Part shown: one piece after another, positions 51,816 through 64,000 of the stretch | Layout of the letters: each line of letters opens with the position of its first letter | Numbering within the stretch: the stretch's first letter is position 1 | Assembly: GCA_045118435.1 (NCBI GenBank) | Contig: JBGUYA010000153.1 | Span: 4,391 to 68,390, forward strand | Length of the DNA stretch: 64,000 nt | DNA from: Quinella sp. | GTDB taxonomy: Bacteria; Bacillota; Negativicutes; Selenomonadales; Selenomonadaceae | Direction: 5' to 3' | Position numbers and translations under genes: made by a program | Notes under the pieces: model-generated | The model's input: the letters and a program-made list of their open reading frames with translations, nothing else | The model's database searches: none | Told to the model about the DNA's origin: nothing

Positions 51816-51840
51816 CCCTCCAACGCGGAGGGTTTTTTTT
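51816..51840. terminator. Bidirectional terminator between thrC and the glycosyltransferase operon
   Basis: An A7 run, then CCCTCC-aacgc-GGAGGG, then T8. Confidence 0.75.
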
Positions 51841-51873
51841 ATTACGAATTACGCATTACGAATTACGCATTGC
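51841..51873. repeat. Heptamer repeat (ATTACGA/ATTACGC units)
   Basis: ATTACGA ATTACGC ATTACGA ATTACGC ATTGC. On the minus strand it encodes the last residues (CVIRNA*) of the first glycosyltransferase paralog. Confidence 0.85.
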
Positions 51874-53186
51874 AGTTCTGGCGGCGTCAAATTTTTATCA
51901 ACAATCAAACGCTCAACAGCATTGATGACTTGGCGCGGATAAATTTTCTTTTGACACTCAAGCTCGCGCGACGTGCCTTTGTGATACGGGCAAGTGTCGT
52001 GCGTAAAAATCACTCGCAAATCGTGGAAGCAACCGTTGCACACAAGGCGATTTGCGACACGATAAGGCGTATAAAGCTCGTGCCAATCTTGAGTAAAGCC
52101 GGCAATCATGACAACGGGACAACCTACCGCGTCGGCAATCCACGCCAAGCCGCTACTCAAGCCGATAAAAAATTCCGCATGATAAAGCATGTTCGCCCGC
52201 TCCATAATCGAGAAGTCGCCGGTAAAATCTTCGGCATTGGCGGGCATCGCGACCGAGTAATTTCCTTCGCTTTGAAAATTTTTCTTGTCAATGCAAAAGA
52301 CGCGGTAGCCCAGACTGTTAAGATAGTTAACGAGAATTTCCCAACCGTTTGGATAAAGCCAGCCCTTGCGCGGCGACGACGCTTGAACACTTATACAAAC
52401 ATACGGCTCGCGCGTGACGGGTGGCAACGTCGGCTTAAACTTCGGCTTCGGCGGCAAGGTGTTCAAATTTAAAATCGCGTTGCCCATGCGCTCCAATGGC
52501 ATATTCCGATAATCGACTGTGCAAAACGGAAAGTCGCCGCCGTACATTTTATAGAAATAAGTCGCATAGTTGTCAAAATTTATCTCGGCAACCTGCGGCA
52601 AGTCGGGATAAAGATTCGCCGCAAGCTCGCGCAAATATTCCGGCAAGCAAATCGAGACCGCGCAATTAAACTTTCGCTTGAACTCTGCGGCGGAAGGAAG
52701 AAAAATCAAATTGTCGCCAAGCCCGCAAGTTTTAGCGAAGTTTAAAAGAACTTTCTGCCCTTCAGGATTGAAGTCATGCTCAAAAATTTTCTCGCCGTCT
52801 TGAAAAACTTCAACGCGCCAACGAATAAAATACTTCTCGACAGAAATCAATCGCACGTCGGAAATGTCCCTGTCGAAAAAAATTTGCCCGTCGTTGTCGC
52901 CAATCGTGACGTGAAAATTTCCTTCGGGCACATCGAGCCGCAAGCCAAAGTTAAAATCCAGTCGCAAGCCTTCAATGCCCGTCTCGCCGCAAATTTCAGA
53001 GTCGCAACCCGCCTCGCGCTGTTCATAAATTTTCATTACGTCGAACAAAAAATCTTGAATGGCGGGTGCGTCTGTCAACGCCGGAAAATTCGGGTCGAAG
53101 TCGGGCGTCTTGTTCAGCGCGTCGACGTTCATCACGCCCCGAAGATAGTCGCGAATATCCCGTGCGCAGAAGTAAAATTTTCGCAT
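51849..53186 (-). CDS. TibC/Aah-like autotransporter O-heptosyltransferase (BAHT family, GT9-like fold), paralog 1
   Basis: 445 aa. Collinear with TibC as I recall it: EPYVCISVQAS, GW.ILVNYLNSLGYRVFCID, AEDFTGDFSIMERANMLYHAEFFIGLSSGLAWIA, ELYTPYRVAN, and a Cys cluster CNGC...CPYHKGTSRELEC. Confidence 0.75.
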   Translation of the reverse strand: MRKFYFCARDIRDYLRGVMNVDALNKTPDFDPNFPALTDAPAIQDFLFDVMKIYEQREAGCDSEICGETGIEGLRLDFNFGLRLDVPEGNFHVTIGDNDGQIFFDRDISDVRLISVEKYFIRWRVEVFQDGEKIFEHDFNPEGQKVLLNFAKTCGLGDNLIFLPSAAEFKRKFNCAVSICLPEYLRELAANLYPDLPQVAEINFDNYATYFYKMYGGDFPFCTVDYRNMPLERMGNAILNLNTLPPKPKFKPTLPPVTREPYVCISVQASSPRKGWLYPNGWEILVNYLNSLGYRVFCIDKKNFQSEGNYSVAMPANAEDFTGDFSIMERANMLYHAEFFIGLSSGLAWIADAVGCPVVMIAGFTQDWHELYTPYRVANRLVCNGCFHDLRVIFTHDTCPYHKGTSRELECQKKIYPRQVINAVERLIVDKNLTPPELQCVIRNA

Positions 53187-53190
53187 AGAA

Positions 53191-54498
53191 TTACCTTAAC
53201 AAATTTTTGTCGAGAATCAACTGATTAATCGCGTCGATAACTTGGTGCGGAGAAATTTTTTTCTGGCACTCAAGCTCGCGCGACGTGCCTTTGTGATAAG
53301 GACAAACCTCGTTTACAAAACCGACATGTAAATCATTAAAGCAGCCATTGCATACAAGGCGATTTGCCACACGATACGGCGTATAAAACTCGTACCAATC
53401 TTGCGAAAAGCCGCAAATCATGACGACGGGACAACCTACCGCGTCGGCGAGCCACGCCAAGCCGCTCCCCAGCCCGATAAAAAATTCCGCGTGATAAAGC
53501 ATGTTCGCCCGCTCCATAATCGAGAAGTCGCCCGTAAAATCTTCGGCATTGCTCGGCGCGGCAGTTGTATAATTTTCGTCACTCTGAACTTTTTTCTTGT
53601 CAATGCAAAAGATGCGGTAGCCCAAACTTTTCAGATAGTCAACGAGAATTTCCCAGCCGCCGGGATAATGCCAACCCTTCGTCGACGTGGAGGCTTGCAC
53701 GCTTATGCAAACATAAGGCTCGGCGCAAAATCTCTGCGCGGTCGGTTTGAAAGTCGGCTTTGTCGGAAGAGTTTCAAGCCCCAAAATCGTGCCGCCCATG
53801 CGCTCCATTGGATTGTTGCGAACGTCAACGGGCAAATACGGCAAAGGACTCATCAGCGCGAAAACAAAGAACGTCGCGTAATTTTCCAAGTTGATTTGGT
53901 CGACGTGCTTAAGCGCGGGATAAAGATTTGTCGTAATCTCGCGCAGATATTCGGAAAGGTGGATTGAGACTTCGCAGTTGTGCCGCCGCCTGAACTCCTC
54001 GACCGCAGGGAGCATTGCAAGCGTATCGCCCAATGCCGCTTGAACTCTGAAAATCATGAGCACGCTTTGACCTTCGGGATTGAAGACGTGTTCAAAAACT
54101 TTCTCGCCGTCACGGAAAATTTCAATGCGCCAACGGATAAAATACTTTTCAAGCGAAATCAGTCGTACGTCGGAAATATCTCTGTCGAAAAAAATCTGCC
54201 CGTTGTCGTCGCCAATCGTGACGTGAAAATTTCCTTCGGGCACATCGAGACGCAACCCGAAATTAAAATCAAGTAGTAATCCGTCAATGCCCGTCTCGTA
54301 ATAAATCGGCGCGTCGAAATATTCTTCGCAGTTCGGATAAATTTTCATTAGGTTAAGCAAATGGTTTTGAACAATGGGTGCGTCGGTCAATTCGGGCATG
54401 GTCGGCTTGAAGTTCGCGACCTTTTCCAACTCGTTGACCTTGACTATATCTTTAATGTAATCGCGAATGTCGCGGGCGCAAAAAATTAATTTTTTCAT
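53191..54498 (-). CDS. TibC/Aah-like autotransporter O-heptosyltransferase (BAHT family), paralog 2
   Basis: ORF 53191..54513. ATG at 54498 gives MKKLIFCARDIRDY, parallel to paralog 1, with GAGGT upstream. Same motif set, including CNGC...CPYHKGTSRELEC. Confidence 0.75.
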   Translation of the reverse strand: MKKLIFCARDIRDYIKDIVKVNELEKVANFKPTMPELTDAPIVQNHLLNLMKIYPNCEEYFDAPIYYETGIDGLLLDFNFGLRLDVPEGNFHVTIGDDNGQIFFDRDISDVRLISLEKYFIRWRIEIFRDGEKVFEHVFNPEGQSVLMIFRVQAALGDTLAMLPAVEEFRRRHNCEVSIHLSEYLREITTNLYPALKHVDQINLENYATFFVFALMSPLPYLPVDVRNNPMERMGGTILGLETLPTKPTFKPTAQRFCAEPYVCISVQASTSTKGWHYPGGWEILVDYLKSLGYRIFCIDKKKVQSDENYTTAAPSNAEDFTGDFSIMERANMLYHAEFFIGLGSGLAWLADAVGCPVVMICGFSQDWYEFYTPYRVANRLVCNGCFNDLHVGFVNEVCPYHKGTSRELECQKKISPHQVIDAINQLILDKNLLR

Positions 54499-54499
54499 G

Positions 54500-55804
54500 T
54501 TAAGACCTCGCAATCGGTGGCGTCAAATTTTTGTCGAGAATCAAACGTTCAATGGCGTTGATAACTTGGCGCGGGTGAATTTTTTTCTGACACTCAAGTT
54601 CGCGCGACGTGCCTTTGTGATAAGGACAAAAATGTTTAATAAAAAACACGCGAATATCATTGAAGCAACCATTGCACACAAGTCGATTTGCCACACGATA
54701 CGGCGTATAAAACTCGTGCCAATCTTGCGAAAAGCCGCAGATCATGACGACGGGACAATCTACCGCGTTGGCGAGCCAAGACAAGCCGCTCCCAAGCCCG
54801 ATAAAAAATTCCGCGTGATAAAGCATGTTCGCCCGCTCCATAATCGGGATGTCGCCGGTAAAATCTTCGGCATTGCTCGGCGCGGTGACCGTGTAATTTT
54901 CGTCGCTCTGAACTTTTTCCTTGTCAATGCAGAAGACGCGGTAACCCAGACTTTTAAGATAGTCAACGACAATCTCCCAGCCGCCAGGATAATGCCAACC
55001 CTTCCTAGCCAATGAAGCTTGCACGCCAATACAAACGTAAGGCTCACTCGTGACAGGCGGCAAGGTCGGCTTAAAAGTCGGCTTCGGCTGGATAGTTTTG
55101 AGTCCCAAAATTACGCCGCCCATGCGCTCCATTGGCATATTTCTAAGGTCGGCGGCGATCGTTCGGATAGATGCCATTGGCATTAGTGGATAATAAGTTG
55201 CGTACGTTTTGAAATTTATTTCGTCGACTTGCGGAAGGTCGGGATAAAGTTGTGCGGCGAACTCGCGAAGATATTCGGGCAAATAAATTGACAGCTCGCA
55301 ACGATTACGCTTTTGAAACTCTCGCGAGTACGGCAACAACGCAATTATGTCGCCCAAGGCGTTTTGTCGAAAGGCAAGCAAAACTTTCTTCCCCTCCAAG
55401 TTCAACGTGTGCTCAAAAACTTTCTTATCGCCTGAAAAAATTTCCACGTGCCAACGGATAAAATGTTGCTCAACGGAAATCAGTCTGCCGCCCGAAATGT
55501 ATTCGTCGAAAAAAATTTCATCGGTTTCGGCGTCGCCAATCACCACGCGAAAATTGCCTTCGGGCACGTCGAGTCGTAAACCGAAGTTAAAATCCAGTCG
55601 CAAGCCCTCAATGCCCAGCTTGCCGTAAATCATGGAATCGAAAATTTCTTGCGGAACATTAAAAAAGCCCTTTTTATAAGAAAGAAAATATTTCTTTTCA
55701 AAATCCTCTTGCGTCTCGTCGAAAGGCATTTCCTTCTCCATAAACTCGAAGTAAACTTTCCTGTGATCCTCAATATTTCTCGCGCTGAAAAAATGAATCC
55801 TCAT
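54500..55804 (-). CDS. TibC/Aah-like autotransporter O-heptosyltransferase (BAHT family), paralog 3
   Basis: 434 aa. Same motif set (EPYVCIGVQAS, AEDFTGDIPIMERANMLYHAEFFIGLGSGLSWLA, CNGC...CPYHKGTSRELEC) with a more diverged N-terminus. Confidence 0.75.
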   Translation of the reverse strand: MRIHFFSARNIEDHRKVYFEFMEKEMPFDETQEDFEKKYFLSYKKGFFNVPQEIFDSMIYGKLGIEGLRLDFNFGLRLDVPEGNFRVVIGDAETDEIFFDEYISGGRLISVEQHFIRWHVEIFSGDKKVFEHTLNLEGKKVLLAFRQNALGDIIALLPYSREFQKRNRCELSIYLPEYLREFAAQLYPDLPQVDEINFKTYATYYPLMPMASIRTIAADLRNMPMERMGGVILGLKTIQPKPTFKPTLPPVTSEPYVCIGVQASLARKGWHYPGGWEIVVDYLKSLGYRVFCIDKEKVQSDENYTVTAPSNAEDFTGDIPIMERANMLYHAEFFIGLGSGLSWLANAVDCPVVMICGFSQDWHEFYTPYRVANRLVCNGCFNDIRVFFIKHFCPYHKGTSRELECQKKIHPRQVINAIERLILDKNLTPPIARS

Positions 55805-55815
55805 GAAAAAATCTC

Positions 55816-56541
55816 CTAAAGCAGGTTGATAACTTTATGCGTCTGCGGTATGACGCGGACATTTTTCAATATGCGGAGCGCGTCGGCTTGCAACGATAAA
55901 ATTTTCTCCGCCGTCGCCGCGCGTATTCCTTTGACGGGCGTTACGGGTTGTAGGATTAACAAAATTTCTCTGTCGACGCCCGCGATTAGCTCGACTGCCG
56001 CTAAAAATTCTTTGCGCGGCGTTTCACCCGTCACCACGATTTTAACATACAAATCCTTTTTCTGCGCGGCTCGCAAAAATTTTTCGTGCAAGGCGAAAAG
56101 ATTTTGCCCAAGTTTTATATCCATGCTCACAATGTCGACTGCGTCCGAAATTTTTTCAAACTCGTTGTAAAGTGTGCCGTTAGTCTCAAGAAAAATTTTC
56201 ACGCCGAGATTTTTAACTGAGCGGGCGACTTCGCCAATAAATTGCCAATGCAAAAGCGGCTCGCCGCCCGTAAAACTCACGGCTTGCGTCGGAACTTCGC
56301 TTGCAAAAGTTTTTATGACCTCAGCGACCTGCGCGGCGTCGAGAGGATTTTTTTCTTCGCGAAAGTTCATTGAGCCGACAAAAGTTTCAACTTTGCAAAA
56401 GTCCGCGCGAGCAAAATTCGTGTCGCAGTACGCGCAGTTCAAGTTGCAATCGGCAAGCCGAACAAAGATTTGTCGGCAACCTAAATACTTTCCCTCGCCT
56501 TGAACCGACGAAAAAATTTCTATGACGTTCGCCTTATTCAT
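55816..56541 (-). CDS. queE: 7-carboxy-7-deazaguanine synthase
   Basis: 241 aa. EIFSSVQGEGKYLGCRQIFVRLADCNLNCAYCDT (radical SAM CX3CX2C preceded by the QueE-specific SxQGEG) and TGGEPL. Confidence 0.88.
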   Translation of the reverse strand: MNKANVIEIFSSVQGEGKYLGCRQIFVRLADCNLNCAYCDTNFARADFCKVETFVGSMNFREEKNPLDAAQVAEVIKTFASEVPTQAVSFTGGEPLLHWQFIGEVARSVKNLGVKIFLETNGTLYNEFEKISDAVDIVSMDIKLGQNLFALHEKFLRAAQKKDLYVKIVVTGETPRKEFLAAVELIAGVDREILLILQPVTPVKGIRAATAEKILSLQADALRILKNVRVIPQTHKVINLL

Positions 56542-56905
56542 AATACGTCACGCAGGAATTGGGCGTCTCAAAAACTTTGACTGCATAAAGTTTCGTCGTG
56601 CCGCTGAAAATTTCACTCGCCGCAAGTTTTTTAAAAACCTTCCGCGCAAGATTCTCCGCCGTCGGATTTTCTTCCGCAAAACTTTCAAGCTCATTCAAAA
56701 ATCTGTGGTCGAACTCGTCAAGAACTTTGTTAAGCTCCGCCTTGAGAACTTTAAAATCAACGAGCATACCGAGCGCGTCAAGCTCCTCGCCGCGAATCAC
56801 CGCCTCAATATTCCAATTATGCCCGTGAAGTCGCGAACACTTGCCCGCGTAGCCGTCAATGAAATGCGCCGCCTCGAAAGCCGACCGAACTGTCAATTCA
56901 TACAA
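56534..56905 (-). CDS. queD: 6-carboxy-5,6,7,8-tetrahydropterin synthase
   Basis: I trimmed ORF 56534..57034 to the TTG at 56905, which has AAGGAGGAG 7 nt upstream. (M)YELTVRSAFEAAHFIDGYAGKCSRLHGHNWNIE and ENLARKVF are typical QueD/PTPS. Confidence 0.85.
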   Translation of the reverse strand: MYELTVRSAFEAAHFIDGYAGKCSRLHGHNWNIEAVIRGEELDALGMLVDFKVLKAELNKVLDEFDHRFLNELESFAEENPTAENLARKVFKKLAASEIFSGTTKLYAVKVFETPNSCVTYYE

Positions 56906-57017
56906 AATTTTTCTCCTCCTTACGTTAAATCGCTTGCCGCCTGCCGAGCCGCTCCAAAATTTTCCAAATCGTCTCGCGCAGACGATTTTTTTGTTATAAT
57001 CAATCGCAGGTGATTTT

Positions 57018-59666
57018 ATGCGTTTCAAATTCAAATTTCAAGCCTTCCAAGCCGCCGCCGCCGATTCAATAGCCGATTTATTCACAGGTCAGCCTCTTCA
57101 AACTCAAAACTTCGCTCTAAATCGTCTTGATGAATTTTTTATCGGCTCCAATCAGAAAATTTTCCTTCCCGAATCAAAAATCTTGAAAAATCTGCGCGGC
57201 ATTCAAGCTCGCAATAACATTCAGCCTTCCGAAAGCCTTTGCGGCATGAATTTTTCTGTTGAAATGGAGACCGGCGTCGGGAAAACCTATTCTTACATCA
57301 AAACTATCTATGAACTCAATAAACGCTACGGCTGGAGCAAATTTATCGTTGTCGTGCCCAGCGTCGCCATCCGCGAAGGCGTTAAAAAGTCTTTCGAGAT
57401 GACTGAAGACCATTTCGCAGAGATTTACGGCGAAAAAATCCGCCACTTCGTCTATAACTCCAAAAATCTCTCCGTCATTAAAAATTTCGTCTCCGATTCT
57501 AAAATTTGGGCGATGATTATCAATGTTCAAGCATTTAATGCTCGCTCCGCCGACGCCCGCCGCATGTTGCAACCGCTTGACGAGTTTCAAAGCCAAATTC
57601 CGATTGAAATTATCGCCAAAATCAATCCCATTGTCATTATCGATGAGCCGCAGTCGGTTGAAGGCACTGTTGCACGCGAAAAAATTAAAAATTTTAACCC
57701 GCTAATGATTTTGCGCTACTCCGCAACTCATAAAAAACTTTTTAACCTTGTTTATCGCCTTGACGCGCTCGACGCATATAATCAACGCCTCGTTAAGAAA
57801 ATTTCCGTTAAAGGTATCGAAAAATGCGGAGGCAATTCGACAGGCTATATTTTTTTTGAGAAATTGAACCTTTCCAAGCAAAATCCAACCGCAACGCTCA
57901 CTTTTAACAGCAAAATTTCCTACGGAACAAAAAAAATTACCCGCAAAATTGCTACGGGCGACGATTTATTTATTTTATCCGGCGGACTTGAAGATTATCG
58001 CAATTTTAAAGTGACTTTGATTGACGGCGCAGAAAAATCAATTGAATTTATTAACGGAATTAAAATTTTCGTCGGTCAAGTTATCGGCGACGTGGACGAA
58101 GATGAATTCAGGCGCATTCAAATTCGTGAGACTATTCAAAGTCATCTGGAGCGCGAATATCAACTTTTTCAATACGGAATTAAAGTTTTGTCGCTGTTTT
58201 TCATTGATGAAGTCGCCAAATATCGTCAATACGACGGAAATAATCCCGTTGCGGGCGTCTATGCCAAGATTTTTGAGGAAGAATATATTTCTGCAGTTAA
58301 AAACTTTAAAGCCGACGACGATTATAAAAATTATCTTAATTCAATCGCCGCGCAGGATACTCATGCAGGTTATTTCTCGATTGACAAGAAAAATCGAGCC
58401 ACAAATTCAAAAGATGATGACGCTGACGCTTATAATTTGATTATGCGCGATAAGGAGAGGCTTTTGGACTTGAAAAATCCCGTTCGATTTATTTTTTCGC
58501 ACTCGGCGTTGAAAGAAGGCTGGGATAATCCAAATGTTTTTCAAATTTGCACGCTCAAGCAGACTGCAAGCGATATTCGGCGGCGGCAAGAGGTCGGGCG
58601 CGGCATGAGACTTTGCATAAATAATCGCGGCGAACGCATGGACTTTGAAAAAATCGGCGCGGACGTTCACAATATAAATATTTTAACCGTCATTGCAAAC
58701 GAAAGCTATAAAAATTTCGCGGCGGGCTTGCAAAAAGAACTTTCTGAGGTATGCGCGGCGGCTGACAAGATAAAAATTGAAAATGCTCGCGATATTGACG
58801 TTGAGGCGACGGCTGACGACAAAAAATTGCGCGATAAAAATTTCCTCGAACTCTGGGCTAAAATCGATCAAAAAAGTTTCTACAGCGTCGAATTTGATTC
58901 GGACGAATTAATAAAAGGCGCGATTGAGACTCTTAACAGCAAATTATCTGCTACTAAAAGCTATTTTATTATCGAAAGCGGCACTTTGAATTACGATTTA
59001 AAATTTGATAAGGAAAATATTCGCACGGAAGAATTTCAAAGCGTTTCTGAGGCTCCAGAAATTGATTTAATCGCCGAACTCTCCGCCGAAACTGACTTGA
59101 CGCGCCGCGATATTGCCGAAATTCTTAAACGTATCGAACTCGTCAAGTTTAATCACGAAAAATTTATCCCGAACGTGAAAAAAATTATTCTCGACGCAAA
59201 AGCCACGCAGGTGACGGCAAATATTTCATACACCGCGCTTGACGAGCGATTTAATATTAAAATTTTCTCCGCTCCGATTAAAGGACGTTTAAACGTCAAC
59301 GCAACGCCAACTGCAAAAAATATTTATGATTATCTGATTTTCGACTCTGATATTGAGAAAAAATTTGCCTCCGAACTCGAAAAAGCCGACGGAGTTTTGA
59401 TTTATGTTAAGTTGCCGAAAAGTTTTTATATCCCGACGCCGCTCGGCAAATATAATCCAGATTGGGCGATAGTTTTCCGCGACGGCGACGTTAAAAATAT
59501 TTATTTCGTCGTTGAAACTAAAGGCTCGACCGAAGAAACTCAAATGCGCGGCTCTGAAAAGGCTAAAATTACTTGCGCAAAGAAATTTTTTGACATAATC
59601 AGCGGAGGCAAGGTAAAATATCTCGTGACTGACAGTTTTTATAAGTTATTGGAGGCGATTAAATGA
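57018..59666 (+). CDS. res: Type III restriction endonuclease subunit Res (SF2 helicase-like plus C-terminal nuclease)
   Basis: 882 aa. FKFQAFQAAAADSIADLF N-terminus as in Type III Res. Helicase motifs (METGVGKTY Walker A, VIIDEPQS DEAH-like, SATH, HSALKEGWDNPNVF, QEVGRGMRL). PD-(D/E)xK-like C-terminus (NPDWAIVF...YFVVETKG). Confidence 0.88.
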   Translation: MRFKFKFQAFQAAAADSIADLFTGQPLQTQNFALNRLDEFFIGSNQKIFLPESKILKNLRGIQARNNIQPSESLCGMNFSVEMETGVGKTYSYIKTIYELNKRYGWSKFIVVVPSVAIREGVKKSFEMTEDHFAEIYGEKIRHFVYNSKNLSVIKNFVSDSKIWAMIINVQAFNARSADARRMLQPLDEFQSQIPIEIIAKINPIVIIDEPQSVEGTVAREKIKNFNPLMILRYSATHKKLFNLVYRLDALDAYNQRLVKKISVKGIEKCGGNSTGYIFFEKLNLSKQNPTATLTFNSKISYGTKKITRKIATGDDLFILSGGLEDYRNFKVTLIDGAEKSIEFINGIKIFVGQVIGDVDEDEFRRIQIRETIQSHLEREYQLFQYGIKVLSLFFIDEVAKYRQYDGNNPVAGVYAKIFEEEYISAVKNFKADDDYKNYLNSIAAQDTHAGYFSIDKKNRATNSKDDDADAYNLIMRDKERLLDLKNPVRFIFSHSALKEGWDNPNVFQICTLKQTASDIRRRQEVGRGMRLCINNRGERMDFEKIGADVHNINILTVIANESYKNFAAGLQKELSEVCAAADKIKIENARDIDVEATADDKKLRDKNFLELWAKIDQKSFYSVEFDSDELIKGAIETLNSKLSATKSYFIIESGTLNYDLKFDKENIRTEEFQSVSEAPEIDLIAELSAETDLTRRDIAEILKRIELVKFNHEKFIPNVKKIILDAKATQVTANISYTALDERFNIKIFSAPIKGRLNVNATPTAKNIYDYLIFDSDIEKKFASELEKADGVLIYVKLPKSFYIPTPLGKYNPDWAIVFRDGDVKNIYFVVETKGSTEETQMRGSEKAKITCAKKFFDIISGGKVKYLVTDSFYKLLEAIK

Positions 59667-61489
59667 CGAATCTTGATAAAATCGCGGAGATTTTCCCCGA
59701 AGTCATAACCGAAACTGAAGACGATGACAGGAATTTGATTCGCGCAATTGATTTTGAACACCTTAAGCAAATTTTATCTGATGAGTTGCTTGACGGGCGC
59801 GAGGCTTATATTTTTAACTTTGTCGGGAAGAAAAAAGCCGAATTTGAGGCGCATAAACCGATAAAAAAGACGCTCCGACCGATTATTTCCGCAAGTCGCG
59901 ACTTCAACACAACGAAAAATCTTTATATTGAGGGCGATAATCTTGACGCGCTGAAAATTTTGCAAGAAAGTTATCTCGGCAAGGTGAAAATGATTTATAT
60001 CGACCCGCCATACAACACCGGAAACGATTTTATTTATCTTGACGACTACAAACAGGACGCTGACGTCTTCGACGACGCCGCGCAAGTGCTTGATGACGAC
60101 GGCAACCGCCTTTTAAATCGCGAAAGTCGCGGGCGTTTTCATTCCGATTGGTGCGCTATGATTTATTCGCGTCTTTTGCTCGCCAAAAACTTTCTTGCGC
60201 CCGACGGAGTCATTTTTATCAGCATTGACGACCACGAACAGGCTAATCTTAAAAAAATGTGCGATGAAGTCTTCGGTGAGAAAAATTTTGTCGAAAATAT
60301 CATTTGGAAGAAACGCTACGGCGGCGGTGCCAAAGAAAAATATCTTGTATCACTTCAAGAATATATTTTAATGTATTGCAAAGACATTGACCGCCTTAAA
60401 GAAATATTTATTCCATTATCTGACGAATCTGCGAAAAAATATTACGGTAAACGCGACGAAAAATATAATCTGCGCGGCGGCTACAGGACACATCCTTTAG
60501 AAGCTGGCAAAGCAATGGACGCTCGCCCGAATTTGATTTATCCAATTCCAGCACCTGACGGTAGTTTAATTATGCCAAAGCGTCAATGGTTATGGGCTAA
60601 AGAAAGAACTTTCGAGGCTCTAAAGAACAATGAGCTTGAAATTATTCGCGGAAATGACGGCAAATGGGTCGTTTCTTCAAAACAATATTTAAAAGATGAC
60701 GCTGGAAATACACGAATGGGCAAAATGTTTTCGATAATAGACAATGTCTTCACTCAACACGGAACGAACGAGATGATTTCTATTCTTGGCAATGCAAAAA
60801 TTTTTTCTTATCCAAAACCAACCGAACTGATTAAAATTCTTTTGCAAATTGCGACGGACGCTGATTCAATCGTCATGGATTTTTTCAGCGGCAGTGCGAC
60901 GACGGCGCATGCAGTAATGGAATTGAACGCACAAGACGGCGGCAATCGTCGATTTATCATGATTCAGATTGATGAGCTGACGTCCAAAAATTCGGAGGCT
61001 CGCCGCGCAGGTTTTAAAACCATTTGTGACATTGGCAAGGAGCGGATTAGACGCGCGGGCGACAAAATCAAAGCAGAAAATCCCGCAATCGACACGGGCT
61101 TTAGGGTTTTCAAAGTTGATTCGTCGAATTTCAAAGACATTCCGCGAGTTTGGAATAAACAAACGATAATGGACTTTGCCGAAAACATAAAAGACGACCG
61201 CGACGAGTGGGATTTACTTTTCGGGACGTTACTTGAGACGGGCAAGCAGATAGATTTAGCGGTTAATGTTGAAGAAATGGGCGGCGTAAAGGTTTTGAAC
61301 TGCGCAGGCGGCGAGATATTGGCGAGTTTCGATAAAAATATCTCTGCGGAAGTTTTTAGGACATTGGCAAGGCGAAAACCGCAGAAAATATTCTTCCGCG
61401 ACGCGTCTTTTACGAGTTCTGCAGATAAAATCAACGCGCTTGAGTTTTTCCGCAACTTCGCTCCCGATACAACCGTAAAAGTTCTGTAA
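59663..61489 (+). CDS. mod: Type III R-M DNA methyltransferase subunit Mod (beta-class amino-MTase)
   Basis: 608 aa. MIYIDPPYNTGNDFIY (motif IV DPPY) precedes VMDFFSGSATTAHA (motif I FxGxG). 4 nt overlap with res. Confidence 0.88.
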   Translation: MTNLDKIAEIFPEVITETEDDDRNLIRAIDFEHLKQILSDELLDGREAYIFNFVGKKKAEFEAHKPIKKTLRPIISASRDFNTTKNLYIEGDNLDALKILQESYLGKVKMIYIDPPYNTGNDFIYLDDYKQDADVFDDAAQVLDDDGNRLLNRESRGRFHSDWCAMIYSRLLLAKNFLAPDGVIFISIDDHEQANLKKMCDEVFGEKNFVENIIWKKRYGGGAKEKYLVSLQEYILMYCKDIDRLKEIFIPLSDESAKKYYGKRDEKYNLRGGYRTHPLEAGKAMDARPNLIYPIPAPDGSLIMPKRQWLWAKERTFEALKNNELEIIRGNDGKWVVSSKQYLKDDAGNTRMGKMFSIIDNVFTQHGTNEMISILGNAKIFSYPKPTELIKILLQIATDADSIVMDFFSGSATTAHAVMELNAQDGGNRRFIMIQIDELTSKNSEARRAGFKTICDIGKERIRRAGDKIKAENPAIDTGFRVFKVDSSNFKDIPRVWNKQTIMDFAENIKDDRDEWDLLFGTLLETGKQIDLAVNVEEMGGVKVLNCAGGEILASFDKNISAEVFRTLARRKPQKIFFRDASFTSSADKINALEFFRNFAPDTTVKVL

Positions 61490-61613
61490 ATAATCCTTGA
61501 CAGTGTTGCCGCGTCGTCATAAGTTTTTCTAATCATAATCGTTTCAGCGTGTAATGTTAAATCAATTTACACAGAGTTGATTTTTATTAATCAAGAACAA
61601 GCGGGGGGAAATT

Positions 61614-61949
61614 TTGCGAGCTAACGTCAAAACTTTGTCGGAGTCGCTCAAGTCGGCGATTGAATTCACTCTCGAAACTTTTTATCAGCCGCCGAGTGCG
61701 TCAGAATTGGCGAAAAAATTCTTGGCAAGCTTGCCGTCAATGACGTCGGAAGACGCACATTTAAAAGCAAGAAGCGATGTAGCATATTTCGCATTGCAAA
61801 ACAATTTGGAATTCTGGTTGAGCCTTGAAAATTTGCCGCACGAAATTTGGAATAAAAGAGGTTTGTCACGAAAGCCCAAAAGAACCTGCGGTTGGCTGGA
61901 GAAAGGAAGAAAATATTCATTGGCAATGTATCTTCCGTATCAAGTCTGA
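61614..61949 (+). CDS. Hypothetical protein (111 aa), possibly part of a decayed mobilisation module
   Basis: TTG start after GGGGGG. No family recognised. Its 3' end overlaps, in another frame, the relaxase-like relic. Confidence 0.3.
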   Translation: MRANVKTLSESLKSAIEFTLETFYQPPSASELAKKFLASLPSMTSEDAHLKARSDVAYFALQNNLEFWLSLENLPHEIWNKRGLSRKPKRTCGWLEKGRKYSLAMYLPYQV

Positions 61950-62067
61950 TAAGAAATCGAACGGAACAAAAATTTCTGCTGTCCAACACGTTGAGTATAT
62001 CAATCGTGAAGGCAAATTTTCTACGCCGGAGCAATGTTATCATGTCACTTGTTCCGACATAAAGTAA
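61885..62067 (+). pseudogene. Relic of a MOBQ (MobA/MobL-type) relaxase N-terminus
   Basis: The frame of ORF 61825..62067 reads ...NIHWQCIFRIKSDKKSNGTKISAVQHVEYINREGKFS.... Compare RSF1010 MobA as I recall it: MAIYHLTAKTGSRSGGQSARAKADYIQREGKYA. There is no ATG at the homologous start, and the frame stops about 20 codons later. Confidence 0.4.
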
Positions 62068-62467
62068 TGGAAGTTGAGCTGATTTGCTCAAGCGTGACGT
62101 ATTACCGTCTTCGCCATAAATTTGGACAGAGAAATCATTGCTGTTAACGATGTCATTGCCTGTACCACAGTGAATGCTAGAACTACCGTTATTGTCAATT
62201 GTGCCGTCGCCGCCTTTAGCTTCAATTGTGACGCCATTATGGTTTCTTGGGTTGTAAATGCAATCGTTGCCCTCAGTGCCTTTTAGATGATGATTGTAAT
62301 TCGTGACCCCTTTCCTTTTTTCTGACCATAAAAATCACTTCCTAAAAAAGTTTCAGTTATTTACACGTCGAGACGAGCGGTTTCATTTACGAGGAGTCGA
62401 AAAATTTTTTTACATTGCGAATGAAGCCGTTGCCGTTGGTGCCGCTTACGGAATACACCTGCGCGGT

Positions 62468-63727
62468 TCAGGGGATTATCACGGTTACAATCGTTCCGCC
62501 ACCTGCGCGGGTTTGTATCGTCATTTTTCCGCCGCACATTATTTCTAAGCGTTGCCGTATATTTTTTAGGGCGATATGCGGTTTGCTGTCGTCAGATTTG
62601 AAGTCAAAGCCGGGACCGTTGTCCTCTACAATAATTTCACTGCCGGAACTTGTCTCGCGGGTTCGTATGGTTATGTGGAGCGGAGAATATTCCGGATCCA
62701 TGCCGTGCTTAATGGAATTCTCAACGATAGGTTGCAAAGTCAGCGGCGGCAAGCGAAATTCTTTATGATATATATCGTACTCAATAAAAAGACTGTCCTC
62801 GAACTGAACCTGCTCTACGGCTAAATAAGCGCGTGTATGTTCCAATTCGTCGGAGAATGGAACGGTATCTTCGCTGGCAATGGCGGTAAAGTTCTTGCGA
62901 AGATAAGTTGTAAAATCCAGCGTGACTTGCTGAGCTTTTTTAGCGTCTTTCGCGCAGAGATAATAAATACTCATCATGGCGTTGTAGATAAAGTGCGGTC
63001 GCATTTGCAATACCATAATGCTTGCGCGTTGGTGAGCAATTTCCCGCTGTTGTTCTACGTACTGTTCAATCTGGTCGTACAGAATAATTACGAACAGCGA
63101 AAGAATCGAAACGCACGCGCTTAAAACGACGGTTGCGAGAAATTCATAAATAAAACTGTTGATAAACAAAGTGACCTGCAACGGTATCAGATGAATCAGG
63201 AACGCGACATAATATTTTTTGGGTAATTTGTCGCGTTTCTTTATAACGCTTGCCAAATTTATAAACATAACCGCAAACGCGGGAGCAACCATAAGCGAAT
63301 GCCAAGAACCTTGTACAAATTGATTATCCGCCGTGATGTAATAAAAAATCGTCGTAAACTGTGCTGTTGCCAACAAAATAAAATATATGCCCCATAAAAC
63401 GACGACCGTGCGGAAAATCGAACTCTTTTGCCAGTCTTCGCCGCAAGTGCGCAACAAGTAAGCCGTAAACATTGGCATCGGTATCGACAGGAACAGATAT
63501 TCAAAGTAGACGGCAATTTTTTCCGCCCATGCCAAGTTTGGCTCATCGTAAACCACCAAGTCAACTAAAGCAGAAATCATATACAACACGAAAACAGCAA
63601 ACAATATGACGAAGAAACGCTTGTTCCATTGGCTCGTGCTTGGAATGATTACGGAAATCCAAAGTACCATTGCCGACAATGCTATTACTGCGCCGCATAC
63701 GAAAAAATAAAATTGATTCAAACTCAT
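62468..63727 (-). CDS. LytS/YehU-type sensor histidine kinase (multi-TM sensor plus His_kinase/GHKL)
   Basis: ORF 62468..63835. The internal ATG at 63727 (MSLNQFYFF...) abuts the upstream gene's stop codon. About 6 TM helices, then LQMRPHFIYNAMMSIYYL (H-box of the LytS family), PLTLQPIVENSIKHG and VEDNGPG. Confidence 0.85.
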   Translation of the reverse strand: MSLNQFYFFVCGAVIALSAMVLWISVIIPSTSQWNKRFFVILFAVFVLYMISALVDLVVYDEPNLAWAEKIAVYFEYLFLSIPMPMFTAYLLRTCGEDWQKSSIFRTVVVLWGIYFILLATAQFTTIFYYITADNQFVQGSWHSLMVAPAFAVMFINLASVIKKRDKLPKKYYVAFLIHLIPLQVTLFINSFIYEFLATVVLSACVSILSLFVIILYDQIEQYVEQQREIAHQRASIMVLQMRPHFIYNAMMSIYYLCAKDAKKAQQVTLDFTTYLRKNFTAIASEDTVPFSDELEHTRAYLAVEQVQFEDSLFIEYDIYHKEFRLPPLTLQPIVENSIKHGMDPEYSPLHITIRTRETSSGSEIIVEDNGPGFDFKSDDSKPHIALKNIRQRLEIMCGGKMTIQTRAGGGTIVTVIIP

Positions 63728-64000
63728 TACTCTGCACCTCCTGACGGAAACGGGTAGCGGAGTTTTTTTAGTTGCGCTCGGACATTTTCCGCCGTAAGCG
63801 GCTTTAAAAGAAAGCCACAAGCTCCTGTGTTCCACGCATCAAATGAATATTCAATGTACGCTGTCAAAAATACAACGTTTGTGCAGGGATTCAGCTCAAG
63901 CAGCGTGCGGCAAAGATTTAATCCGTTCATTTTGCCCATTTCAATATCCAAAAACGCCAGCGCAATTAAATGAGTCTTCGCGTATTCAATTGCTTCCGAA
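63727..64000 (-). CDS. Response-regulator receiver domain protein, C-terminal part (gene runs off the right edge)
   Basis: ...IALAFLDIEMGKMNGL (phospho-acceptor Asp context), VVFLTAY and GFLLKPL. It ends shortly after the receiver fold with no visible LytTR output domain downstream. Confidence 0.7.
   Translation of the reverse strand, partial: SEAIEYAKTHLIALAFLDIEMGKMNGLNLCRTLLELNPCTNVVFLTAYIEYSFDAWNTGACGFLLKPLTAENVRAQLKKLRYPFPSGGAE

What the first reader, a model, noticed from the sequence alone, without database searches (positions are those of the whole stretch)
51849..56905. queD-queE translationally coupled to three TibC-like glycosyltransferases, with no queC, back-to-back with a Type III R-M operon
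**Seen in the sequence.**
- Five minus-strand genes are packed head to tail.
- queD (56905-56534) overlaps queE (56541-55816) by 8 nt.
- The queE stop TAG is the first part of the TAGGAG Shine-Dalgarno of the next gene (ATG at 55804).
- The next junctions are 1 nt (stop 54500, ATG 54498) and 4 nt (stop 53191, ATG 53186).
- A strong bidirectional terminator closes the unit at 51816-51840.
- The window contains no queC, queF, tgt or folE.
- The 112-nt leader (56906-57017) shows nothing resembling a preQ1 riboswitch.
- The same 112 nt separate the unit from the divergent res-mod operon.

**Established knowledge.**
- QueD and QueE take 7,8-dihydroneopterin triphosphate to 7-carboxy-7-deazaguanine.
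- QueC is required to go on to preQ0.
- 7-deazaguanines occur in tRNA (queuosine). They also occur in DNA, in Dpd systems and phage genomes, where they counter restriction.
- They also occur in deazapurine nucleoside antibiotics.
- TibC/Aah enzymes are ADP-heptose-dependent GT-B-fold transferases.

**Inference.** I do not know of a described arrangement in which CDG-forming enzymes are co-expressed with three sugar-nucleotide transferases.
- It could mark a glycosylated 7-deazapurine metabolite or a macromolecule modification pathway.
- Such a pathway might be functionally linked to the neighbouring R-M system.
- It could also be a coincidental fusion of two operons.
Basis: partly seen in the sequence, partly recalled or inferred. 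Interest (0 to 1): 0.75.

Follow-up and report, generated by a model that had tools for sequence, protein, structure and literature searches.

The report
Queuosine genes carrying adhesin heptosyltransferase passengers
In a rumen Selenomonadaceae bacterium, two ordinary queuosine-precursor genes (queD, queE) share an operon with three TibC-like protein heptosyltransferase genes; the arrangement is real and conserved in the family, but it looks like a sugar-transferase module inserted into a housekeeping operon, not a new deazapurine-sugar pathway.

Summary
- **Gene identities.** The genes are queD, a divergent queE, and three BAHT-family (TibC/Aah) heptosyltransferases. All three keep the TibC catalytic, sugar-binding and iron-finger residues.
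- **Recurrence.** The queDE-GT adjacency is not strain-specific. 8 of 10 QueE-anchored Selenomonadaceae lineages, Quinella included, carry 1-4 GTs within about 15 nt of queE (74 nt in one), across at least four flank arrangements.
- **Most likely origin.** GT-less relatives have queD-queE-small ORF-flavodoxin. GT-bearing relatives have the GT array, usually with an Fe-S aldo/keto reductase, inserted after queE. At least six also have an orthologous giant RTX-like adhesin just upstream, a likely GT substrate.
- **GTs elsewhere.** Sister GTs sit behind aroE, behind tatD, after an integrase, or alone. Distant homologues sit beside AIDA-type autotransporters and never beside queDE.
- **queC.** It is absent from the window but present elsewhere in the family, at a conserved map-grx-queC locus.
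- **R-M system.** The Type III R-M is a mobile cassette: about 90% DNA identity to a relative, against 80% for queDE. The 112-nt leader is a deletion scar of an MFS gene.

Verdict: a composite operon of known parts. A chemical link between CDG and heptosylation, or a link to the R-M system, is not supported.

The parts
57013..57041 (-). Sigma-70-like promoter candidate for the queD operon (TTGAAA-17-TAAAAT). It lies in sequence shared with the res-proximal region of L023.
   Evidence: 10 of 12 consensus matches. One search shows the same sequence upstream of the MFS gene in L023. This is a consensus match only and has not been tested.
56966..56988 (.). Perfect 9-bp inverted repeat (AAATCGTCT-GCGCG-AGACGATTT), unique to the window. 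It sits exactly at the edge of the R-M cassette homology, at the site where the MFS gene is missing.
56917..56961 (-). Remnant of the 3' end of the MFS transporter gene that precedes queD in relatives. It carries the queD Shine-Dalgarno sequence. The 'leader' is therefore a deletion scar.
   Evidence: homology to L023 8847-8888 and to L001 9581-9622, which are the last codons of the MFS gene.
56534..56905 (-). queD, 6-carboxytetrahydropterin synthase (123 aa). The CxxxHGH motif is present.
   Evidence: PF01242 at 4e-40; TIGR03367 at 104 bits against a cutoff of 89.
55816..56541 (-). queE, divergent 7-carboxy-7-deazaguanine synthase (241 aa). It has the CNLNCAYC cluster motif, an N-terminal QGEG motif and a C-terminal PQTHK motif.
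   Evidence: The best PDB hits are the E. coli, B. subtilis and B. multivorans QueE structures. Orthologues are named QueE by NCBI.
54500..55804 (-). GT1, a BAHT-family (TibC/Aah-like) heptosyltransferase (434 aa). It belongs to the paralogue type that is usually first after queE.
53191..54498 (-). GT2, a BAHT-family heptosyltransferase paralogue (435 aa; 64% identical to GT1).
51849..53186 (-). GT3, a BAHT-family heptosyltransferase paralogue (445 aa; 63% identical to GT1).
51816..51840 (.). Bidirectional intrinsic terminator, shared with the convergent thrC.
56988..61490 (+). Mobile Type III R-M cassette: res 57018-59666 and mod 59663-61489. It neighbours the operon but is not part of it.
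   Evidence: One search shows 89-91% DNA identity to L023, against 80% for queDE.

Best explanation
The locus is a composite operon made of two functionally unrelated modules.

**Module 1: queD-queE.** These are the housekeeping enzymes that convert dihydroneopterin triphosphate to CPH4 and then to CDG for queuosine synthesis. The next enzyme, QueC, is encoded elsewhere in Selenomonadaceae genomes, at a conserved map-glutaredoxin-queC locus.

**Module 2: three old paralogues of BAHT-type (TibC/Aah) protein O-heptosyltransferases.** These presumably use ADP-heptose to glycosylate a surface adhesin in the cytoplasm.

**How the two came together (inferred).**
- The ancestral operon in this family was queD-queE-small ORF-flavodoxin. 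Flavodoxin is a plausible reductant for the QueE radical-SAM cluster.
- A GT array, usually with an Fe-S aldo/keto reductase, became inserted directly after queE. It is transcribed by read-through.
- In many relatives a giant RTX-type adhesin gene lies immediately upstream of queD. It is the likeliest GT substrate.

**What happened in the window's lineage (inferred).**
- The queDE-GT segment now lies next to thrC, without the adhesin, the reductase or the flavodoxin.
- A mobile Type III R-M cassette abuts queD, and the upstream MFS gene has been deleted. That deletion left the 112-nt 'leader'.

**Shown.** Gene identities, conserved residues, recurrence of the block, the alternative GT contexts, queC elsewhere in the family, and mobility of the R-M cassette.
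**Inferred.** Co-transcription, a protein substrate for the GTs, and the absence of a chemical link between CDG and heptosylation.
For: **The GTs are canonical BAHTs.**
- They score 337-353 bits on TIGR04414 and match TibC 4RAP/4RB4 at E=4e-71.
- GT1 D152, S264, K268, R324, W343 and C377/380/393/405 align to TibC Asp110, Thr226, Lys230, Arg286, Trp305 and Cys339/342/358/370.
- Every one of these except S264 (S, T or N at the Thr226 position) is invariant in 9 family members (residue roles from PMC4358343).

**Distant homologues sit in the canonical context.**
- Homologues at 38-43% identity lie beside AIDA-repeat adhesins or autotransporters in 5 of 6 loci tested.
- None of these loci has queD or queE, even at E<1e-2.

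**Selenomonad-type GTs also occur away from queDE.**
- They are found behind aroE (L033, L034, L036) and behind tatD (L026).
- They are also found alone with the AKR (L027, L028) and after an integrase (L025).
- In a rough NJ tree the tatD-linked and stand-alone GTs nest inside the queDE-linked paralogue groups.

**The GT array looks like an insertion.**
- GT-less relatives have queD-queE-(small ORF)-flavodoxin (L008, L098).
- GT-bearing relatives carry orthologous flavodoxin and small ORF after the GT array and AKR.

**A giant adhesin accompanies the GTs.** An orthologous giant RTX-like protein lies upstream of queD in L004, L016, L032, L096, L097 and L100/101. All of these carry GTs, and neither GT-less locus has it.

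**queC exists elsewhere in the family.**
- A Quinella genome table lists rpsO-queC-grx-map (PMC9585023, supplement 3).
- At least 120 QueC clusters at 72-93% identity exist, some named Selenomonadaceae by NCBI.
- A metH-map-grx-queC locus occurs in the same metagenome assembly that holds L001.

**The R-M is mobile.**
- It shows 89-91% DNA identity to L023, against 80% for queDE and 73% for the GTs.
- It is separated from queD by the MFS gene in L023, and it is absent from the other relatives examined.

**No defence or riboswitch signal.** PADLOC finds no defence match for QueD or the GTs. There is no riboswitch.
Against: - The queE-GT junction is strikingly stable. 8 of 10 QueE-anchored lineages, at 71-89% QueE identity and including Quinella, keep GTs within about 15 nt of queE (74 nt in L009). 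This holds through at least four different upstream and three different downstream contexts.
- When the segment relocated in the window's lineage, queDE and the GTs stayed together. The adhesin, the AKR and the flavodoxin did not. Operon inertia can explain this but does not prove it.
- In the adhesin-bearing loci, queDE sits between the presumed substrate gene and the GTs. That is odd for a pure bystander.
- I could not inspect the rest of the source genome, so queC and tgt in this very organism are inferred from relatives.
- QueE scores below all curated QueE equivalog cutoffs.
- The GT substrate is unknown, and the giant neighbour has no AIDA repeats.
- The GT tree is a simple NJ tree without support values.
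Confidence: 0.7

Rival explanations
1. Regulatory coupling. Co-transcription of queDE with the giant adhesin and its heptosyltransferases is selected because the supply of queuosine-tRNA (which decodes Asn, Asp, His and Tyr codons) is tuned to the synthesis of an Asn/Asp-rich surface adhesin and its glycosylation. There would be no shared chemistry.
For: - The adhesin-queD-queE-GT order is conserved in at least six lineages, with 12-82 nt between the adhesin gene and queD.
- The adhesin has about 20% NAY codons, against 15-17% in neighbouring genes.
- The queE-GT junction is conserved in 8 of 10 lineages.
Against: - The adhesin prefers C-ending NAC codons: NAU is 33-48% of NAY, against 44-64% in neighbours. 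That is the opposite of the published 'NAU-rich Q-dependent gene' idea.
- In the window and several relatives the adhesin is not nearby at all.
- GTs of the same clade also follow aroE and tatD.
- queC, which is needed for Q, is not co-located.
Confidence: 0.12
2. CDG made by QueD and QueE, without QueC, is the aglycone or a building block that one or more of the TibC-like enzymes glycosylates. The product would be a heptosylated 7-deazapurine metabolite or a modified macromolecule.
For: - Translational coupling is tight and conserved.
- No queC lies in the window or in any queDE-GT locus.
- CDG-based products without QueC exist (tubercidin, roseomycin), as do glycosylated deazapurines (huimycin, dapiramicin), according to 10.64898/2026.04.15.718813.
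- The Selenomonad GTs carry a clade-specific N-terminal extension of about 45-60 aa of unknown role.
Against: - The GTs keep the whole TibC protein-glycosyltransferase architecture, including the acceptor-side beta-barrel and the iron finger.
- The same clade, extension included, occurs without queDE.
- queDE occurs without GTs, with unchanged neighbours.
- QueC is present elsewhere in the family.
- No FolE, phosphoribosyltransferase, TGT/DpdA or tailoring genes are nearby.
- Known deazapurine glycosyltransferases belong to other GT families (PF13439).
Confidence: 0.05
3. The operon is functionally linked to the divergent Type III R-M system, for example through a deazaguanine or sugar modification of DNA that complements or evades Res.
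For: Only the back-to-back position and the shared 112-nt intergenic region in the window. A similar R-M lies near the operon in L023.
Against: - The R-M is 89-91% identical in DNA to L023, while the operon is 73-80% identical. That points to a recently transferred cassette.
- In L023 the MFS gene lies between the R-M and queD. All the other relatives examined lack the R-M at this site.
- The cassette has lower GC, 0.40-0.42 against 0.46-0.50.
- The window shows no DpdA/TGT-like hit, and the operon proteins have no defence-family match.
- Mod is an ordinary N6/N4 methyltransferase.
Confidence: 0.02

Closest known systems
BAHT family: TibC/TibA (ETEC) and Aah/AIDA-I (DAEC) autotransporter heptosyltransferase systems
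   Same: - About 40% identity to TibC over the full catalytic region.
- The same TibC_1st beta-barrel plus GT9-like catalytic domain.
- The catalytic Asp, the sugar-binding Lys/Arg/Trp and the Cys4 iron finger are all conserved.
- Tandem paralogues also occur in distant family members.
   Different: - The window has no AIDA-repeat autotransporter next to the GTs. In relatives the large neighbour is an RTX-like (type I secretion style) giant protein without AIDA repeats.
- The GTs carry a clade-specific N-terminal extension of about 45-60 aa (FFCARDIRDY motif).
- They are embedded at the 3' end of housekeeping operons: queDE, aroE or tatD.
- The host is a diderm Firmicute (Negativicutes), not a Proteobacterium.
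Canonical queuosine/preQ0 operons (e.g. B. subtilis queCDEF with a preQ1 riboswitch)
   Same: - queD and queE are adjacent and overlapping.
- Both keep their catalytic motifs.
- In GT-less relatives they are followed by a flavodoxin.
   Different: - queC and queF are not in the operon. In this family queC lies at a separate map-grx-queC locus.
- There is no preQ1 riboswitch.
- QueE is a divergent subtype, below the NCBIfam equivalog cutoffs.
- Foreign GT genes are inserted after queE.
CDG- or preQ0-derived natural-product clusters (tubercidin, roseomycin, huimycin, dapiramicin)
   Same: They contain queD and queE. Some lack QueC, and some include glycosyltransferases.
   Different: - Those clusters are actinomycete BGCs. 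They carry FolE, regulators, and phosphoribosyltransferase or GT1-type enzymes acting on small molecules.
- None of these accompanies the window operon.
- The preprint's own definition of a full pathway requires FolE, QueD and QueE together, and that is not met here.
Type III restriction-modification systems (EcoP15I-like)
   Same: Res has a helicase domain and a C-terminal endonuclease domain. Mod is an N6/N4 methyltransferase. PADLOC REase_III and MTase_III matches are strong.
   Different: The gene order is res then mod, with a 4-nt overlap. The system is an incidental neighbour, not part of the operon.

Membership tests
BAHT (TibC/Aah) heptosyltransferases | Match to the curated equivalog model TIGR04414 above its cutoff | tested here: met
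   GT1 353, GT2 352 and GT3 337 bits, against a cutoff of 200.
BAHT (TibC/Aah) heptosyltransferases | N-terminal beta-barrel (TibC_1st) plus GT-B/GT9-like catalytic domain | tested here: met
   PF21129 and PF01075 are found in all three; alignment to TibC residues 19-386.
BAHT (TibC/Aah) heptosyltransferases | Catalytic base Asp110 and sugar-binding residues Thr226, Lys230, Arg286 and Trp305 (PMC4358343) | tested here: met
   These map to D152, S264, K268, R324 and W343 in GT1. D, K, R and W are invariant in 9 family members. The Thr position is S, T or N.
BAHT (TibC/Aah) heptosyltransferases | Cys4 iron-finger motif (TibC Cys339, 342, 358 and 370) | tested here: met
   C377, C380, C393 and C405 are invariant.
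BAHT (TibC/Aah) heptosyltransferases | Gene paired with an AIDA-repeat autotransporter substrate | tested here: not met
   The window has no adhesin-like ORF near the GTs. In relatives the neighbour is a giant RTX-like protein with no AIDA hit. Distant homologues do pair with AIDA proteins.
BAHT (TibC/Aah) heptosyltransferases | Dodecameric assembly and ADP-heptose-dependent O-heptosylation of protein Ser residues | not testable with these tools
   This needs biochemistry. Indirect support only: LPS-type GT9 heptosyltransferase genes occur in the family (L026; Quinella waaC and rfaQ). ADP-heptose is therefore probably available.
QueD (6-carboxytetrahydropterin synthase) | TIGR03367 equivalog above its cutoff, and the CxxxHGH active-site motif | tested here: met
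   104 bits against 89.25. The motif CSRLHGH is visible in the translation.
QueE (7-carboxy-7-deazaguanine synthase) | A curated QueE equivalog model above its cutoff | tested here: not met
   the best match is TIGR03963 at 74 bits, against a cutoff of 260. All five QueE models rank at the top but are sub-threshold.
QueE (7-carboxy-7-deazaguanine synthase) | Radical-SAM CX3CX2C cluster motif, N-terminal QGEG substrate motif, closest solved structures are QueE, and the gene is coupled to queD | tested here: met
   - The solved QueE structures 6NHL, 5TGS and 4NJG are among the four best PDB hits, and 6NHL and 5TGS are the top two.
- The motifs VQGEG, CNLNCAYC, GGEP and PQTHK are present.
- queE overlaps queD by 8 nt.
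- Orthologues are named QueE by NCBI.
Complete de novo queuosine pathway | queC, queF, tgt, queA and folE present | tested here: inconclusive
   - None is in the window.
- queC is present elsewhere in family genomes.
- The rest of the source genome could not be examined.
- tgt, queA, queF and folE were not found or could not be tested in relatives.
Deazapurine natural-product BGC / Dpd-type DNA modification | FolE, QueD and QueE co-localised with tailoring enzymes, or a DpdA/TGT-like inserting enzyme | tested here: not met
   - The window gives no FolE or TGT hit.
- The operon proteins give no PADLOC defence match.
- The criterion is taken from 10.64898/2026.04.15.718813.
- PADLOC was run only on the seven operon and R-M proteins, so the test is limited.
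Type III restriction-modification | Res (helicase plus endonuclease) and Mod (N6/N4 MTase) pair | tested here: met
   REase_III 869 bits, MTase_III 651 bits, NF012027 353 bits (below its 564 cutoff).

The most novel reading that the evidence does not exclude
The persistence of the queD-queE-BAHT junction across Selenomonadaceae reflects a real functional dependency. One form would be a GT paralogue, through its clade-specific N-terminal extension, using a CDG/preQ0-derived acceptor. Another would be adhesin heptosylation needing a QueDE product. Either would be a previously unknown link between 7-deazaguanine metabolism and surface glycosylation. A milder version that the data also allow is that these BAHTs heptosylate giant type-I-secreted RTX adhesins, a new substrate class for the family.
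Probability: 0.07. Interest if true: 0.8.

Novelty: new variant of a known kind. Interest (0 to 1): 0.3.

Why it matters
If the best explanation is right, this is mainly a caution about guilt-by-association. A tightly coupled, phylogenetically conserved operon can still join unrelated functions when a promoterless module is inserted into a housekeeping operon.

The modest positive value is threefold:
- It documents a BAHT clade in rumen Negativicutes, Quinella included. The clade has an N-terminal extension, 1-4 tandem paralogues and an Fe-S aldo/keto reductase partner.
- It points to giant RTX-type adhesins as candidate heptosylation substrates outside the autotransporter paradigm.
- It shows that Selenomonadaceae split queDE(-flavodoxin) from queC.

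Only if the unlikely chemical link were real would it open a new branch of deazapurine biology.

Tried and rejected
- **Exact look-up of the window's QueE.** Neither the window sequence nor its 100%-identical cluster representative P0001 was on record. The source contig and the rest of the genome could not be retrieved.
- **Genome-contig scan with QueE.** It returned only 5 loci because the word patterns were strict.
- **First literature search 'heptosyltransferase + QueE'.** It was polluted by 'Queensland' matches. Whole-word searches found no paper linking queDE with BAHT enzymes or Selenomonads.
- **The 2026 deazapurine genome-mining preprint.** It does not mention this arrangement.
- **Pfam and NCBIfam on the giant neighbour.** They gave only a sub-threshold RTX hit and no AIDA or autotransporter domain. 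The GT-substrate assignment therefore remains an inference.
- **Codon test for Q-dependent (NAU-rich) adhesin translation.** The trend went the wrong way.
- **Riboswitch idea for the leader.** Rejected, and on the finding that the leader is a remnant of the MFS gene.
- **Not run.** I did not run structure prediction or fold search, because the sequence match to TibC (E=4e-71) already settled the fold.
- **Weak controls.** Their negative results are weaker than the QueC result, which used a family sequence.

Full report
**1. Observation**

- queD runs 56905-56534, starts with TTG and is preceded by AGGAGGAG.
- queE runs 56541-55816 and overlaps queD by 8 nt.
- The queE stop TAG is embedded in TAGGAG, 11 nt before the ATG of GT1 (55804-54500).
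- GT2 (54498-53191) follows GT1 after 1 nt, and GT3 (53186-51849) follows GT2 after 4 nt.
- A bidirectional terminator at 51816-51832 closes the unit against the convergent thrC.
- The divergent res gene starts at 57018, 112 nt from queD.

**2. Identities**
- *QueD.* It passes the curated QueD equivalog: TIGR03367 at 104 bits, against a cutoff of 89.
- *QueE.* It is a radical-SAM protein.
  - Its best NCBIfam matches are all five QueE models, but every one is far below its cutoff: 74 bits against 260 for the best.
  - Its best solved-structure matches are the E. coli, B. subtilis and B. multivorans QueE structures.
  - It has the VQGEG, CNLNCAYC, GGEP and PQTHK motifs.
  - NCBI names its orthologues QueE.
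  - I accept it as a divergent QueE.
- *The three GTs.*
  - They pass the Aah/TibC equivalog at 337-353 bits, against a cutoff of 200.
  - GT1 matches TibC at E=4e-71.
  - Each TibC residue shown to matter aligns to a matching residue in GT1 (roles from PMC4358343). These are the catalytic Asp110, the sugar-binding Thr226, Lys230, Arg286 and Trp305, and the iron-finger Cys339, 342, 358 and 370.
  - All of them except the Thr226 position (S, T or N) are invariant across nine family members.
  - The GTs are 58-64% identical to one another. They fall into three old paralogue lineages that relatives have lost differentially.
- *Res and Mod.* They form a Type III R-M system.

**3. Organism**

QueE homologues at 70-89% identity are all from rumen-type Selenomonadaceae, including Quinella MAGs.

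**4. Is the adjacency unique? No.**

I anchored on QueE rather than on the GTs.
- Of ten distinct lineages, eight carry GTs directly after queE.
- The GT counts are: the window 3; UBA7018-type (L001) 2; L007 1; L009 2; L004 1; Quinella 3Q1 (L096) 4; L097 3; L100 1.
- The spacer is usually 15 nt or less.
- Two lineages (L008, L098) have none.
- A GT-anchored scan of metagenomes found about a dozen more queDE-GT loci.

The flanks differ between loci.
- Upstream neighbours are an MFS transporter, the R-M cassette, a giant protein, flagellar genes, or chorismate mutase with an AKR.
- Downstream neighbours are thrC, an Fe-S aldo/keto reductase, or other genes.

The block is a family trait.

**5. 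What the comparison suggests about its origin**
- *The GT-less state.* The GT-less loci read queD-queE-(59-62 aa ORF)-flavodoxin.
- *The GT-bearing state.* Several GT-bearing loci read queD-queE-GT(1-4)-AKR(Fe-S)-(same small ORF)-flavodoxin. The AKR (83-95% identity), the small ORF and the flavodoxin (77-86%) are all orthologous.
- *A functional reason for the ancestral operon.* Flavodoxin with flavodoxin reductase is the 'biological' reducing system used for QueE (PMC11994313). A queD-queE-flavodoxin operon therefore makes functional sense.
- *The insertion.* The GT(+AKR) block looks like an insertion into that operon.
- *The giant neighbour.* In L004, L016, L032, L096, L097 and L100/101, an orthologous giant protein lies 12-82 nt upstream of queD.
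  - It is up to 6643 aa long, rich in Thr, Gly, Asn and Asp, and has RTX-like GGxGxD repeats at the C-terminus.
  - Every locus with this adhesin has GTs, and neither GT-less locus has it.

**6. The GT family outside queDE**
- *Distant homologues.* At 38-43% identity they lack the N-terminal extension. In five of six cases tested they sit beside proteins with AIDA repeats, some with pertactin or autotransporter beta-domains. That is the canonical TibC/Aah context. They often occur as tandem pairs, and L045 has six in a row. None is near queD or queE, even at E<1e-2.
- *Within the Selenomonad clade.* GTs also follow shikimate dehydrogenase (L033, L034, L036). They follow TatD, between an LPS heptosyltransferase and PrfA (L026). 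They also stand alone with the AKR (L027, L028) or follow an integrase (L025).
- *Tree.* In a rough NJ tree the tatD-linked and stand-alone GTs nest inside queDE-linked groups. GTs have therefore moved between contexts.

The linkage to queDE is common but not obligate. Heptosylation and shikimate dehydrogenase or TatD have no evident chemical connection either.

**7. queC**

The window has none. The family does have it.
- The Quinella genome table in PMC9585023 (supplement 3) lists rpsO-queC-glutaredoxin-map, with TIGR00364 and PF06508 hits.
- Using that sequence as a query, I found at least 120 clusters at 72-93% identity, some named QueC of Selenomonadaceae by NCBI.
- One of these lies in a metH-map-grx-queC locus, in the same metagenome assembly (ERZ1756109) that contains the queDE-GTx2 locus L001, and also in a UBA MAG.

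I could not examine the window's own genome beyond the 64 kb. queC in this organism is therefore inferred, with high probability.

**8. R-M system and leader**
- Window 56988-61490 is 89-91% identical in DNA to L023, except for a non-homologous stretch inside mod (about 60309-60840), presumably the target-recognition domain.
- queDE is only 80% identical to L023, and the GTs about 73%.
- GC content is also lower across the cassette.
- In L023 the cassette lies beyond the MFS gene that precedes queD. The other relatives examined lack the cassette at this site.
- The window's 112-nt 'leader' has three parts:
  - the res-proximal promoter region, shared with L023;
  - a unique 23-nt perfect hairpin (56966-56988);
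  - about 45 nt that are the last codons of the MFS gene.
- The leader is therefore a deletion scar, not a regulatory leader.
- No Rfam family matches the leader.
- PADLOC finds no defence-system match for QueD or the GTs.

**9. Rivals**
- *Regulatory Q-adhesin coupling.* This is conceivable, since the adhesin has about 20% Q-decoded codons. But it prefers NAC over NAU more than its neighbours do, and in the window the adhesin is not linked at all.
- *CDG-glycoside pathway.* This is not excluded, but it has no positive support beyond the adjacency.
- *Link to the R-M.* This is effectively refuted by the comparative data.

**10. Verdict**

The locus is a real, conserved and previously undescribed gene arrangement built from known parts.
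- It is best explained as a BAHT glycosyltransferase module riding on the queDE operon.
- The likely functional partner of that module is a giant adhesin.
- I found no paper describing the arrangement.
- Interest is modest, at 0.3.
- The residual novel reading, a true link between deazapurine metabolism and heptosylation, gets about 7%.

Noticed in passing
window 60309-60840 (inside mod, 59663-61489): The only stretch of the R-M cassette with no DNA similarity to the otherwise 89-91% identical cassette in L023. It is probably a swapped target-recognition domain, which would give a different methylation and restriction specificity.
   Followed up: partly
window 57018-61489: The Type III system has the gene order res then mod, with a 4-nt overlap, rather than the textbook mod-res order. 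From about 57000 to the end of the window, GC content is 0.40-0.44, against 0.46-0.52 elsewhere.
   Followed up: partly
window 56966-56988: A perfect 9-bp stem with a 5-nt loop sits exactly at the junction between the R-M cassette homology and the MFS-gene remnant. It is absent from L023 and L001. It could be a recombination scar or an operator, but its function is unknown.
   Followed up: partly
window 51849-55804; alignment A1: All Selenomonad-type BAHTs carry a clade-specific N-terminal extension of about 45-60 aa, with a conserved F-F-C-A-R-D/N-I-x-D-Y motif. TibC and the distant homologues lack it. Its role is unknown.
   Followed up: no
L004 12154-13302; L096 14109-15185; L097 13057-14205; L100 8775-9923 and others: An aldo/keto reductase with a C-terminal 4Fe-4S dicluster domain follows the GT array in many loci, including the two GT loci without queDE (L027, L028). 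It is more conserved than the GTs (83-95% identity). It is absent from GT-less loci and from the window. It may be a functional partner of the GTs.
   Followed up: partly
L097 14218-14403; L098 8824-9012; L008, L096 and L100 equivalents: A conserved 59-62 aa ORF with no Pfam match always sits just upstream of the flavodoxin gene, both in queDE-flavodoxin operons and in queDE-GT-AKR-flavodoxin operons.
   Followed up: partly
L045 861-8238: Six BAHT paralogues lie in a head-to-tail array on one 9.7-kb metagenome contig, at 46-49% identity to the window GTs.
   Followed up: no
L096 7835-8008 (Quinella sp. 3Q1): A 57-aa PTPS/QueD fragment is called between queD and queE. It is a small duplication or pseudogene remnant inside the operon.
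   Followed up: no
L025 1-150: A Selenomonad-type GT lies directly downstream of what reads as the C-terminus of a tyrosine recombinase/integrase (LGHANTQITQNLYTH...). This hints that some GT copies travel on mobile elements.
   Followed up: no
L034 7973-9112: A DUF5672 protein, followed by shikimate dehydrogenase, precedes the aroE-linked GT. A CNNM/CBS/CorC transporter follows it.
   Followed up: no
L090 11215-16881: The large neighbour of a distant BAHT combines AIDA repeats with a Por/T9SS C-terminal sorting domain, fn3 and Calx-beta domains. BAHT substrates may therefore extend beyond type V secretion in other phyla.
   Followed up: no
window 61614-62091: Between mod and the histidine-kinase gene (62468-63835, minus strand) lie short overlapping ORFs on both strands. 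The one tested (61614-61949) has no NCBIfam match. The content of this stretch is unexplained.
   Followed up: no
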